Positions 1-3,000 of a stretch of DNA of 64,000 nt are shown here, piece by piece. The stretch covers positions 22,940,001 to 23,004,000 of the forward strand of contig NC_087246.1 in NCBI RefSeq assembly GCF_037042905.1, given 5' to 3'. Every line of letters starts with the position of its first letter. The first letter of the stretch is position 1. The position numbers were made by a program. This DNA is from Lytechinus pictus. Its lineage: Eukaryota.

Positions 1-3000
1 TTGGGAGTATAATGTTGATTACGATAATTAGAGGTGCAAATTTGCAATGAATTTTTTATCTACTCAAGAAGCATTACGGAAATTGTAGATGATGCATGGA
101 CTTAAAAATATTTTATTCAATTTTATTCAATGATCTTTGCTTTGAAAGACTAAACTACATCACGAATGAATTTTACTGTATTTTTATGTCATTTGTACAT
201 TACATTATTTTCTATATTTACGCAACTTTATAGTATGAATACCAAATCTTTGCCACTGCCACCAATCGTTTCACGTGTCTACCGTGATTTGAGTTGTAAA
301 TTTGTTATGCAGAGTACGCCACAGGATGTGGCCCATGGGCATGCCGGGAAGGAGCAATATCTTGAAAATAAGGTATTATGTAAACTATATATTCAAAGGT
401 AACAATGAAGGATAAATAAACTTGCCATACACTGTAAAAAAAACAATGGGTAAAAATTCTAAGCGGTACGAGGGAAATATGTGTCCAACTAATTTGGGGC
501 AGTATTTTATTGTCCATCGCAGTAAAAGATAAACAGCAATTACTTTAGAATGGGCAAAATTTTCATCACACTGGATAAATAAAAATGCCCAAAAGAAGTG
601 TAGAAGTGTAGAGTGTAGAGATTCAGGGCACAAACCAGCGATTAATTCAATTTTAGTATCGGAATCATAGTAGATCATGATGGGTAATCGACTGATCTAT
701 TTACCTTTTGAAAAAGATGAAACAAAATGGGAAAGTCTTGTAGAAATGAATTAAAGAAATATACTTACAAAGATGGGAATATAGTGTAAAGGATTAAACA
801 CACCAGGTAAGTCAGCCGACAAGTTATTGAAATACACTATTACACTTATATGAGCTAATAAGAAGCATGATTTAAAAAAAAAAAACAAGGCACATAAAAT
901 TGAGCTTTTACTAACCGTGTGAATGTTGATATTTGTTGTGCTTGTAGAGTTGTTACTTCCAGGAAATGTCCTCGACCGTCTTTGACGTGTCTTTACAGCC
1001 ATCATTCCGTCGTTGACTATGTCTTCTTTTGTGGCCGGTGTCACCTTCTCCAAATCTTCCTGATCATCATCGTCATCGTCACTGTACTCGCTACCATCAA
1101 ATGCCTGATCTCCTCCGCAACAACCAGAAACAACCATATCGAACTGAGCCTCCTTGTCGTCATCAGTATGGATATCAATGCCATTGATGTGATATTGATC
1201 CATGATCACTGACTTGAATGACGTCGTCTCCGAAGCAGAGGTCGAAATACCGCTGTCGAATCCGTTGATGACTACAGAAGGGAGAGCAGGAGAGAGATTC
1301 AAGTTCAGATTGGTGGTCGGTTGTGCGAACCTTCGCTTTGTCCGACTTCGAGCTGAACTTTTCATTTGGAATGACATGGCAACTTCGAAGTGTCTCTTCA
1401 CTTCTGGCATGTGCTTCTGAAAGAGACAGATATTGAAGTTGAGGTCATTGCAGGATGGATCGACGTGCTTGAAGGTGAATGAAATGTTATTACACTTTCC
1501 TTGCCAGATGTCAGGGAAAAGTCCAGTTTCCTCAAATTTTCGACCCACAGGACTCCATCCATCATTAAGGTGTTTCAATTCGAAAACAAGATCTCCTCCT
1601 TCTTCGTCAATTAAAAATTCCAACGGACATCGAAGCATTGGACAATTATACTTGGCTTGTTGCTGGGTTGCAAACTGCAGAGCACATGGCGTGTTGTTGA
1701 GCATGTACATCAAGACTTGGAATTGGCCTCCCTCCTTCTTTCCGAACGCGGCGAGTTGAATCCACTTCTTTGTCAACTTAGGATGTGATCCTTGAGCGAT
1801 ACATGTGTACAAAGAGAAATGAGATAGGTACACCTGACATTGGTTTTCAAGGAGCGCATATTCAACCTTCCCACATTTCTTCCGATGCTGGATGGGTTTC
1901 CAATGCTTGTCCTGTGTCAAGTGCGTCTCGCTGGACAACACCACGATGTCTCTGGTATCATCTGCACAATGCATGAAGCTTAGAATTGCAGGCTTTGCCA
2001 GCTTCAGTCCATGTGGACCACAATGAACAACAGGGCTTATGATAGTTTGTGTCTCTTTCATCGGTGGGAAGTCGCTTAGATCCCAGTCAAGGACCAGTTG
2101 TATGATCTCCTTCTTACCCCGAGGGATGGCGCAGGGAGGAATTATGAGTGAAATGCCCATCTTGTCCAGAACAAGAGTTCCACCTGAATCATCAATCTCT
2201 CTGGACATAAACACCAACAGCTTGCTATCGACCTCAACAGTGACACTTTCCTTCATATCTGTTTTCAAAAGCTCGATCAACTCACTGTCGATACGACCAC
2301 TACCACAACTATAGGGCGTTAATATTTCCTGCTCATGAGTCACATTTTCTTCATTCTCGCGATGGCCGTTCGAGTCGCCACCACAAGGTCCACAACTTAG
2401 CTCCCATCCATTCTGGGGTTCATCATCCTCTGGAACGTACGCAGGATTCACCTTGGTGTTCTCCCGTTCTTTCCTGATCTGGTAATCGGTCATGGACATG
2501 ATCGCGTTGGATATAATGCAGTTTGACGGGAGATGGTGAAACATCGATGTCGGTTGATCGATGTCGCGTTCCGAACGACGTCGTCGACCCTTTTTCCATT
2601 TGAGGACAGCGATGTAGACTACCAACAACACAACTATTATTACCAACAAAACGATGACGACGCTTAAAACTGCTACTACCTGATGAACATCAGTGCCTAT
2701 TGATTTCTTTTTCATTTTGCTTGCTTTTAATCGGCTATGCAATGAAAATCAAAGGAAGGTATAGATTTCTTTGGTCAATCCACAAGTCAAATGTTTCACC
2801 TAAATTCACCATCGAACTGGGGGTGGTGTACGCATATGAAATCTGGCCAGTTTTCCTTTCATTTTTTCCATGTCTGCCACAAAGTTCTCACCGAAATACT
2901 CATACAATCTCAATCATAAGCGGAAGTGCTCTTCTTTGTGATCTCTGTACATGAAAAGTCCGATTTCCACCAAGTCTCTGCAGACTTGCTTTGCAATATA

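What the first reader, a model, noticed from the sequence alone, without database searches (positions are those of the whole stretch)
1818..2016. Gene-conversion-like tract homogenising the ZU5 core up to the HFS cleavage site between the inverted paralogs
1818-2016 (reverse complement) and 10053-10251 differ at only 8 of 199 nt by my manual count, synonymous sites included. The immediately upstream coding segment (2017-2100 vs 9969-10052) is full of synonymous and non-synonymous changes, and the linkers barely align. Near-identical silent sites with a sharp boundary point to ectopic conversion between inverted copies rather than protein-level selection alone.
Basis: partly seen in the sequence, partly recalled or inferred. 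Interest (0 to 1): 0.65.

Follow-up and report, generated by a model that had tools for sequence, protein, structure and literature searches.

The report
Gene-conversion tract between sea-urchin UNC5CL-like paralogs
Two neighbouring, oppositely oriented copies of a sea-urchin death-domain signalling gene share a 200-base stretch that one copy very probably pasted over the other, a real but ordinary case of gene conversion.

Summary
1818-2016 (reverse complement) and 10053-10251 differ at 8 of 199 nt; the 84 nt upstream differ at 26 of 84.

The window is Lytechinus pictus: gene A is 100% identical to LOC129273577. It carries two head-to-head UNC5CL-like genes (TM-ZU5-UPA-death domain).

Evidence for conversion:
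- **Silent sites:** tract dS is 0.13, against saturated values 5' of it and 0.6-1.4 3' of it.
- **Scan test:** a silent-codon scan picks exactly 10053-10250, and 0 of 1000 permutations reach its score.
- **Substitution pattern:** transitions to transversions are 7:1 in the tract and 105:93 in the flanks.
- **dN/dS:** 0.15 in the tract, matching the 3' flanks, so both site classes were reset.
- **Phylogeny (protein level):** the tract groups by species and the rest by paralog. Informative sites are 0 by paralog and 3 by species inside, 44 and 5 outside, and AU tests agree.
- **Controls:** no RNA structure and no Rfam family explains it.

Ectopic conversion is therefore well supported, probably A into B, before the pictus/variegatus split.

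The 5' edge is sharp. The 3' edge is not (support 10245-10345), so its coincidence with the HFS site is unproven.

Cross-species DNA and reads could not be checked.

This is a known kind of event and of modest interest.

The parts
1817..2016 (-). Converted tract, copy in gene A. It encodes the C-terminal half of ZU5, from PHGLKL to YLSH plus the first two bases of the F codon.
   Evidence: 8 of 200 nt differ from 10053-10252. tract dS 0.133 and dN 0.019.
10053..10252 (+). Converted tract, copy in gene B, the probable acceptor.
   Evidence: ML changepoint segment 10053-10252. Silent-codon scan optimum 10053-10250, reached by 0 of 1000 permutations. B's long protein branch is missing here.
916..2715 (-). 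Gene A, first coding exon (600 codons): short N-terminus, TM helix, linker, ZU5, UPA, linker. The donor GT is at 915-914. A's death-domain exon lies beyond the left edge of the window.
   Evidence: 100% identical to residues 1-600 of P0005, L. pictus LOC129273577. Pfam ZU5 84.8 bits; UPA 20.9 bits, below the 27-bit cut-off.
9351..11066 (+). Gene B, first coding exon: TM, linker, ZU5, UPA, linker. The donor GT is at 11067.
   Evidence: Open frame 9267-11117. 93% identical to P0001, L. variegatus 'netrin receptor UNC5A-like, LOW QUALITY PROTEIN'. Pfam ZU5 79.5 bits. Junction read.
11582..11992 (+). Gene B, second coding exon (death domain), after a 515-nt GT..AG intron in phase 0.
   Evidence: Pfam Death 31 bits, cut-off 22.6. 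Acceptor AG at 11580-11581 read. Matches the C-terminus of P0001 at 91%.
1368..2333 (-). Arm of the inverted paralogous repeat (A side).
   Evidence: the repeat finder I1: 966 nt, 79% complementary, 7402 nt between the arms. blastn 959 nt at 79.9%.
9736..10701 (+). Arm of the inverted paralogous repeat (B side).
1813..1821 (-). His-Phe-Ser codons of gene A, the presumed autoproteolysis motif at the ZU5/UPA junction.
   Evidence: Read. H174 F175 S176 are invariant in all 9 aligned echinoid sequences. Cleavage itself was not tested.
10248..10256 (+). His-Phe-Ser codons of gene B. The first mismatch after the tract (10253) is the third base of the Phe codon.
10254..10418 (+). Zone of intermediate silent divergence just 3' of the tract (start of UPA). 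It may be the eroded remains of an older or longer conversion.
   Evidence: dS 0.60 here, against 1.40 for 10419-10700 and saturation 5' of the tract. With the main tract masked, 10269-10688 is the best low-difference segment (31 of 98 silent codons differ, against 41 of 67 on the 5' side), reached by 17 of 500 permutations.

Best explanation
The tract is the footprint of non-allelic (ectopic) gene conversion between two inverted, head-to-head UNC5CL-like paralogs whose homologous arms lie 7.4 kb apart on one Lytechinus pictus chromosome.

Inferred mechanism: a break or gap in one copy was repaired by strand invasion into the paralog. About 200 nt (at most about 290 nt) of the donor was copied over the acceptor without crossover. 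That reset synonymous and non-synonymous divergence in the segment together.

Since then 8 substitutions have accumulated: 5 synonymous and 3 non-synonymous, 7 of them transitions and 2 of them at CpG.

Direction (inferred): A into B. B has a long protein branch everywhere else in the ZU5-UPA core but not in the tract, while A's tract is as close to its S. purpuratus ortholog as A's flanks are.

Timing (inferred from few sites): after the Lytechinus/Strongylocentrotus split and before the L. pictus/L. variegatus split.

The same segment also groups by species in S. purpuratus, and the death-domain exon shows a similar pattern. The pair has therefore probably exchanged sequence repeatedly. This stretch would be an island where identity stayed high enough for exchange to continue while the flanks escaped.

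Shown: the silent-site trough, its significance, and the species-wise grouping at protein level.
Inferred: the repair mechanism, the direction, the timing and the recurrence.
For: 1. Silent sites. tract dS is 0.133 (5.0 differences over 41.2 synonymous sites). pS is 0.78 (saturated) for 9729-10052. dS is 0.60 for 10254-10418 and 1.40 for 10419-10700, and both linkers are saturated. Third positions differ at 4 of 66 in the tract and 119 of 258 outside. Four-fold sites differ at 3 of 22, against 18 of 31 and 20 of 40.

2. Significance. Fisher p = 5e-8. The scan optimum falls on the tract, and 0 of 1000 permutations reach it. The changepoint model gains 28.9 lnL units.

3. Both site classes are reset. 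Tract dN/dS is 0.146, against 0.162 and 0.108 in the 3' core. Constraint on silent sites alone would instead raise dN/dS.

4. Young-divergence signature. Transitions to transversions are 7:1 in the tract and 105:93 in the flanks. Two of the 8 changes are CpG to CpA.

5. Phylogenetic incongruence.
- Among LpA, LpB, SpA and SpB, quartet-informative columns in the tract are 0 by paralog and 3 by species. Outside the tract they are 44 by paralog and 5 by species. My hand calculation from those counts gives a hypergeometric p of about 0.0025.
- The ML tree outside the tract groups by paralog (supports 87/93 and 100/99), and the AU test rejects a Lytechinus clade at p = 5e-7.
- The ML tree of the tract groups by species (80/83 and 68/77), and the AU test rejects LpA+SpA at p = 0.007.

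6. The tract is not specially constrained as protein in the long run. Diadema differs from the A-type sequences at 18-19 of 66 tract positions, against 32-37 of 108 in the 5' core.

7. Protein identity alone does not give silent identity in this gene. The identical stretch KKWIQLAAFGKKEGGQFQVL has pS 0.69.

8. Direction. My arithmetic on the distances puts B's branch at about 29.5 of 108 in the 5' core and about 2.5 of 66 in the tract. LpA-SpA is 4 of 66 in the tract against 8 of 108 in the 5' core.

9. Timing. In the tract, LpB equals LvB and differs from LpA at 2 sites (A and I). LpA equals LvB and differs from LpB at 1 site. No site has LpA equal to LpB and different from LvB (alignment).

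10. Geometry. The paralogs are close, on one DNA molecule and inverted. That arrangement allows conversion without deletion (established knowledge).
Against: - No DNA of any other species could be examined, so the species-wise grouping rests on protein only. It depends on 3 informative columns in the tract.
- I named the clades for the AU tests after I had seen the alignment.
- The L. variegatus ortholog of A was not found. Timing therefore rests on 2 sites, and direction on branch-length arithmetic.
- The tract still differs at 4%, so it is not a fresh event. A mosaic of shorter events cannot be separated from one event.
- Arm A's tract folds slightly better than shuffles (z -1.63, 13 of 200 shuffles as good). 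This is weak and is not matched by B (z -0.95, 35 of 200).
- GC3 is only slightly higher in the tract (0.545 and 0.515, against 0.484 and 0.496), so there is no clear GC-biased signature.
- No reads were available to exclude an assembly or polishing effect in the L. pictus assembly.
Confidence: 0.85

Rival explanations
1. Selection on the nucleotide sequence itself has kept silent sites unchanged in both copies since the duplication. The element could be an exonic regulatory element, a splicing enhancer, an RNA structure or an embedded non-coding RNA within this part of the exon.
For: - The trough lies inside a conserved coding region, and its second half is identical as protein in all five Lytechinus and Strongylocentrotus sequences.
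- Arm A folds somewhat better than shuffles (z -1.63).
Against: - No Rfam match in the tract at E up to 1 over 1-12500.
- B's tract has an unremarkable fold (z -0.95).
- dN/dS in the tract equals that of the flanks (0.146 against 0.11-0.16).
- The ts:tv ratio of 7:1 looks like young divergence.
- The tract groups by species at protein level, which constraint does not predict.
- Both mRNAs carry the tract in the same sense, so no pairing between the two transcripts is involved (read from the strands).
Confidence: 0.05
2. The tract is an assembly or polishing artefact. Reads from one paralog were used to correct the other over their most similar stretch, or a haplotype or paralog collapse made a chimeric consensus.
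For: - Inverted paralogs a few kb apart in a highly heterozygous genome are a known risk (recalled).
- The window has N runs elsewhere, so the assembly is not gap-free.
Against: - The two copies still differ at 8 positions spread over the whole tract. Mis-polishing would tend to give identity.
- The independently assembled L. variegatus B protein has the same tract residues as L. pictus B, apart from 1 of 66.
- Gene A equals the database protein P0005 over 600 of 600 residues. This is the same assembly lineage, so the support is weak.
- S. purpuratus shows the same species-wise pattern in a third assembly.
- No N run lies within 1-16000.
Confidence: 0.05
3. Chance, or a local low mutation rate: a cold spot present in both copies by descent, together with strong protein constraint.
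For: Silent divergence varies along the exon even outside the tract. One example is 1 of 15 silent codons differing at 10629-10688.
Against: - 0 of 1000 permutations reach the tract's score.
- A cold spot would not make residues group by species.
- Long-term protein divergence of the tract against Diadema is ordinary, 18-19 of 66.
Confidence: 0.02

Closest known systems
Interlocus (non-allelic, ectopic) gene conversion between nearby duplicated genes. Textbook cases, recalled and not looked up here, include the human gamma-globin pair, the opsin genes and the arms of Y-chromosome palindromes.
   Same: - A short tract, here about 200 nt, of near-identity that includes silent sites, inside otherwise old paralogs.
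- Gene-tree conflict between the tract and its flanks.
- Close linkage of the two copies.
- Inverted orientation, as in palindrome arms.
   Different: - The arms are only 79% alike overall, and silent sites are saturated outside the tract. This is a small residual island, not wholesale homogenisation.
- The evidence is comparative only. No polymorphism or pedigree data were available.
UNC5CL (UNC5C-like, ZUD): vertebrate membrane-anchored ZU5-UPA-death-domain protein
   Same: - Best named matches outside urchins are 'UNC5C-like protein' of hemichordates, amphioxus, molluscs and vertebrates.
- No Ig or thrombospondin ectodomain: only a short N-terminus before one hydrophobic helix.
- ZU5, a UPA-like region and a death domain.
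- An HFS motif at the end of ZU5.
- A review states that Unc5CL keeps ZU5 autoproteolysis, lacks the Unc5 ectodomain and keeps the TM helix (PMC10084454, passages).
   Different: - The urchin proteins are longer (about 710-740 aa against about 520) and have long, fast-evolving linkers.
- The gene is duplicated into an inverted pair.
- Neither cleavage nor signalling has been tested.
PIDD1 and the FIIND of NLRP1/CARD8 (ZU5-UPA autoproteolysis at HF/S or SF/S)
   Same: The motif sits at the C-terminal end of ZU5, just before UPA. PIDD cleaves after each ZU5 at HF/S, and CARD8 and NLRP1 cleave at SF/S (PMC3210808, passages).
   Different: The domain context differs: no LRR, NACHT or CARD. The solved UNC5B has DQLG at the aligned position and no HFS (alignment).

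Membership tests
Ectopic gene conversion tract | A segment with much lower divergence than its flanks at synonymous sites, beyond chance | tested here: met
   dS 0.133 against saturated values and 0.6-1.4. 0 of 1000 permutations reach the score. 28.9 lnL units gained.
Ectopic gene conversion tract | Phylogenetic incongruence: the tract groups paralogs within a species, and the flanks group orthologs | tested here: met
   Tested at protein level only. Tract: 0 sites by paralog and 3 by species. Outside: 44 and 5. AU p = 0.007 and 5e-7.
Ectopic gene conversion tract | The same incongruence at silent sites in DNA of related species | not testable with these tools
Ectopic gene conversion tract | Donor and acceptor are homologous sequences in one genome, usually close together | tested here: met
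   Inverted arms 7402 nt apart.
Ectopic gene conversion tract | Both copies are real in the individual sequenced (read support) | not testable with these tools
   No reads were available. Indirect support comes from the L. variegatus B protein.
UNC5CL-like (TM-ZU5-UPA-DD) | ZU5 domain | tested here: met
   Pfam PF00791: 84.8 bits (A) and 79.5 bits (B), cut-off 21.
UNC5CL-like (TM-ZU5-UPA-DD) | UPA domain after ZU5 | tested here: inconclusive
   Pfam PF17217 scores 20.9 bits for A, below the 27-bit cut-off, and does not match B. The alignment to UNC5B 3g5b does run through ZU5 and UPA (query 52-308, chain 12-274, E 3.4e-19). Relatives carry a precomputed PF17217.
UNC5CL-like (TM-ZU5-UPA-DD) | C-terminal death domain | tested here: met
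   B exon 2 scores PF00531 31 bits, cut-off 22.6. A's death domain is seen only in P0005, because its exon is off the window.
UNC5CL-like (TM-ZU5-UPA-DD) | No Ig/TSP ectodomain; one N-terminal membrane helix | tested here: inconclusive
   The start codon of P0005 lies 12-15 residues before a run of about 23 hydrophobic residues. No TM predictor was run, and upstream exons were not excluded by transcript data.
UNC5CL-like (TM-ZU5-UPA-DD) | Autoproteolysis at HF/S | not testable with these tools
   The HFS motif is present and invariant in 9 of 9 aligned sequences. Cleavage needs an experiment.

The most novel reading that the evidence does not exclude
The tract is not a one-off repair accident. 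It is a persistent, selectively kept island of concerted evolution over the autoproteolytic half of ZU5, with a second island in the death domain.

Exchange recurred independently in the Lytechinus and Strongylocentrotus lineages. The proposed reason is that the two paralogs must stay compatible. For example, their HF|S-cleaved ZU5 and UPA-DD fragments may re-associate across paralogs, or their death domains may co-assemble. Conversion would then repeatedly rescue the fast-evolving B copy.
Probability: 0.12. Interest if true: 0.55.

Novelty: new member of a known kind. Interest (0 to 1): 0.3.

Why it matters
The tract is a clean, statistically solid example of short-tract ectopic conversion between inverted paralogs in an echinoderm. 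In this case the event can be placed on a species tree and given a probable direction.

For annotation and phylogenetics, the ZU5 C-terminal half of these urchin UNC5CL-like genes, and probably their death domain, should be left out when inferring orthology or dating the duplication.

Its biological weight is modest unless the recurrence in two lineages turns out to be driven by selection for compatibility between the two proteins.

Tried and rejected
- **RNA-level explanations.** The tract was folded on both copies (z -0.95 and -1.63). An Rfam scan of 1-12500 at E up to 1 gave 4 weak hits, none in either tract and all far below their gathering scores. Rejected.

- **A decayed large palindrome.** I suspected that the inverted repeat near the midpoint between the genes (5817-6023 / 6201-6407, 78%) was a pair of paralogous promoters or first exons. 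Partial copies of the same element occur as two more inverted pairs, at 46405-46498 / 46854-46896 and 50080-50179 / 50521-50590. It is therefore more likely a dispersed foldback or MITE-like repeat. No other similarity between the two upstream regions was found.

- **A third copy in the window** that would allow a proper GENECONV-style test. None was found. With two sequences every variable site is a mismatch, so I used permutation of silent codons instead.

- **The L. variegatus ortholog of A.** It was not among 19 hits, 63 hits or 1 hit in the 'shorter' search.

- **Cluster membership of P0005 and P0001.** The query was not sent because the database is switched off.

- **The L. pictus genome paper.** It is not held under its PMC id or its DOI. 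The assembly method and the pictus/variegatus divergence date were therefore not read.

- **GC-biased conversion signature.** Only a slight GC3 excess was seen, which is not informative.
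Full report
**What the window is**

The window is not human. Gene A's long open frame (754-2748, minus strand) is 100% identical over 600 residues to P0005, 'uncharacterized protein LOC129273577 [Lytechinus pictus]'. Gene B (9267-11117, plus strand) is 93% identical to P0001, 'LOW QUALITY PROTEIN: netrin receptor UNC5A-like [Lytechinus variegatus]'. The window is therefore painted sea urchin DNA.

N runs occur elsewhere in the window, but none lies within 1-16000. They were left untouched.

I never joined exons into a spliced model.

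**Anatomy**

Two paralogs lie head to head.

- **Gene A:** first coding exon 916-2715 (minus), with donor GT at 915-914. Its death-domain exon is off the left edge of the window.
- **Gene B:** first coding exon 9351-11066, a GT..AG intron at 11067-11581, and a death-domain exon at 11582-11992.

Pfam results:
- ZU5 is found in both genes (84.8 and 79.5 bits, cut-off 21).
- UPA gives a sub-threshold match in A only (20.9 bits, cut-off 27).
- A Death domain is found in B's second exon (31 bits, cut-off 22.6).

The core aligns to the solved UNC5B cytoplasmic ZU5-UPA structure 3g5b (E 3.4e-19, query 52-308). Where the urchin proteins have SHFS, UNC5B has DQLG.

Named relatives outside urchins are 'UNC5C-like protein'. 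A review states that Unc5CL lacks the Unc5 ectodomain, keeps the TM helix and the ZU5-UPA-DD supradomain, and keeps ZU5 autoproteolysis (PMC10084454, passages). PIDD cleaves after each ZU5 at HF/S, and CARD8 and NLRP1 cleave at SF/S (PMC3210808, passages). Heinz 2012 and Tinel 2007 were seen only as entries in those papers' reference lists.

H-F-S is invariant in 9 of 9 aligned echinoid sequences.

The similar arms are 1368-2333 and 9736-10701: 966 nt, ungapped, 79% complementary and 7402 nt apart. There is no third copy in the window.

**The observation**

Extended by one base, the tract is 10053-10252 / 1817-2016 with 8 of 200 differences.

**Is it more than chance?**

Divergence was estimated by Nei-Gojobori partitions:

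| Segment | Result |
|---|---|
| N-linker | dS 2.5 |
| 5' core, 9729-10052 | pS 0.78 (saturated), dN 0.23 |
| Tract | dS 0.133, dN 0.019 |
| 10254-10418 | dS 0.60 |
| 10419-10700 | dS 1.40 |
| C-linker | saturated |

Further comparisons of the tract with its surroundings:
- Third positions differ at 4 of 66, against 119 of 258.
- Four-fold sites differ at 3 of 22, against 18 of 31 and 20 of 40.
- Codons with the same degenerate amino acid differ at 5 of 61, against 77 of 172 (Fisher p = 5e-8).
- A scan over all segments of at least 10 such codons picks 10053-10250, and 0 of 1000 permutations reach its score.
- A two-changepoint likelihood on all 972 core bases picks 10053-10252 and gains 28.9 lnL units over a uniform rate.

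The 5' edge is sharp, with support 10050-10060. The 3' edge is not, with support 10245-10345.

**Conversion or constraint?**

Five lines of evidence favour conversion.

1. dN/dS in the tract (0.146) equals that of the neighbouring core (0.162 and 0.108). Both site classes were reset together.

2. The 8 differences look young: 7 transitions to 1 transversion, against 105:93 in the flanks, and two are CpG to CpA.

3. Elsewhere in this exon, stretches of identical protein have diverged silent sites. For KKWIQLAAFGKKEGGQFQVL, pS is 0.69.

4. The tract is not unusually constrained as protein over longer time. Diadema differs from the A-type sequences at 18-19 of 66 tract positions, against 32-37 of 108 in the 5' core.

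5. I aligned 9 of the 65 proteins and translations in hand. These were the two window exons plus P0001 (Lv-B), P0002 (Sp-B), P0003 and P0004 (Sp-A), P0006 and P0007 (Diadema) and P0008 (unnamed source). The non-echinoid hits were left out.
   - Among LpA, LpB, SpA and SpB, gap-free informative columns in the tract are 0 by paralog and 3 by species: A/L at 10071, R/Q at 10116 and V/A at 10125. Outside the tract they are 44 by paralog and 5 by species.
   - By the Diadema outgroup, R is derived and shared by both Lytechinus paralogs. The A of DIAV is derived and shared by both S. purpuratus paralogs.
   - ML trees used 8 rows; P0004 was dropped as a near-duplicate of P0003. Outside the tract they group by paralog, and the AU test rejects a Lytechinus clade (p = 5e-7). 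In the tract they group by species, and the AU test rejects LpA+SpA (p = 0.007).
   - Caveats: I named the tested clades after seeing the alignment, and the tract has few variable columns.

Controls against an RNA-level reading were negative. Fold z-scores were -0.95 and -1.63, and there was no Rfam match in the tract.

**Direction and timing (inferred)**

From the distance tables, B's own branch is about 29.5 of 108 residues in the 5' core but about 2.5 of 66 in the tract. LpA-SpA is 4 of 66 in the tract against 8 of 108 in the 5' core. The tract in both copies is therefore A-like, which points to A as donor.

Within the tract, LpB and LvB share A (10113) and I (10203) against LpA. LpB alone has Y (10182). 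No site unites LpA and LpB against LvB. The event therefore most simply predates the pictus/variegatus split and postdates the split from Strongylocentrotus.

One paper puts the common ancestor of S. neumayeri with S. purpuratus and L. variegatus at about 45 My (PMC11586663, passage). I found no date for the two Lytechinus species, because the L. pictus genome paper is not held.

**Recurrence**

Three observations suggest repeated exchange in this gene pair.

1. The S. purpuratus paralogs also share derived tract residues.

2. In the UPA part (10254-10700), SpA-SpB differ at 10 of 149 positions, fewer than SpA-LpA at 19 of 149. This is unexpected for a duplication older than the speciation.

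3. In the death-domain exon, informative columns are 1 by paralog and 4 by species. LpA and LpB share derived N and G (AANEVGKYLQDGSES) against D and A in LvB, SpA and SpB. This suggests a second, younger exchange in L. pictus. A's death-domain DNA is not in the window, so this evidence is protein only.

With the main tract masked, the 3' core still has fewer silent differences than the 5' core: 31 of 98 against 41 of 67, reached by 17 of 500 permutations.

Taken together, this fits a shrinking island of concerted evolution. That model of duplicate-gene divergence is recalled, not looked up.

**What stays open**

Silent sites across species could not be compared.
- Read support for the assembly could not be checked.
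- The link between the 3' edge and the HFS motif is not established.
- No supplementary files were consulted, and none seemed to bear on the claims.

On prior reports, a full-text search for 'Unc5CL' with 'sea urchin' found 0 papers. A search for 'gene conversion', 'sea urchin', 'paralogs' and 'death domain' (at least 3 of 4 terms) found 88 papers. Of the 10 listed, none concerned this gene, judged by title and abstract. On those two searches alone, I know of no report of this tract.

**Verdict**

The feature is a new example of a well-known process, so its interest is modest.

Noticed in passing
window 11582-11992 (B death-domain exon), compared with the C-terminus of P0005 (gene A): The death-domain core is nearly identical as protein in LpA, LpB, LvB, SpA and SpB. 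LpA and LpB share derived N and G within AANEVGKYLQDGSES, against D and A in LvB and both S. purpuratus paralogs. Informative columns are 4 by species and 1 by paralog. This looks like a second, younger conversion in L. pictus. A's exon is off the window, so no DNA check was possible.
   Followed up: partly
proteins P0002 and P0003 (S. purpuratus paralogs), aligned to window 10254-10700: In the UPA part the two S. purpuratus paralogs differ at 10 of 149 residues. That is fewer than SpA against its L. pictus ortholog, at 19 of 149. It suggests a separate, larger homogenised stretch in that lineage.
   Followed up: partly
window 9351-11066 (gene B): B sits on a long protein branch in Lytechinus, about 27% of residues in the 5' ZU5 core against about 5% for A (my arithmetic on the distances). 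Its core is nonetheless well conserved between L. pictus and L. variegatus (7 of 323 differences). This indicates an earlier burst of change, or relaxed constraint followed by constraint.
   Followed up: no
window 5817-6023 and 6201-6407; also 46405-46498 / 46854-46896 and 50080-50179 / 50521-50590: A 207-nt inverted repeat (78%, 177-nt spacer) sits almost midway between the two genes. Partial copies occur as two further inverted pairs inside the neighbouring gene's introns. It is probably a foldback or MITE-like dispersed element, not a relic of the duplication.
   Followed up: partly
window about 24258-62935, plus strand: Open frames here look like exons of a copper-transporting P-type ATPase (ATP7-like). 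They show metal-binding MxCxxC segments at 24258-24764 and 38899-39363, and ATPase core segments at 51055-51456 and 62483-62935. I recognised this by eye; no family search was run.
   Followed up: no
window 48339-49026: A long tandem repeat is visible as a periodic 8-residue unit in two reading frames, which implies a period of about 24 nt. No tandem-repeat finder was run.
   Followed up: no
window 3419-3495: Weak hairpin-like matches to two miRNA precursor families appear on both strands, far below their gathering scores (28 bits against 88, E 0.084). They are probably a chance palindrome.
   Followed up: no
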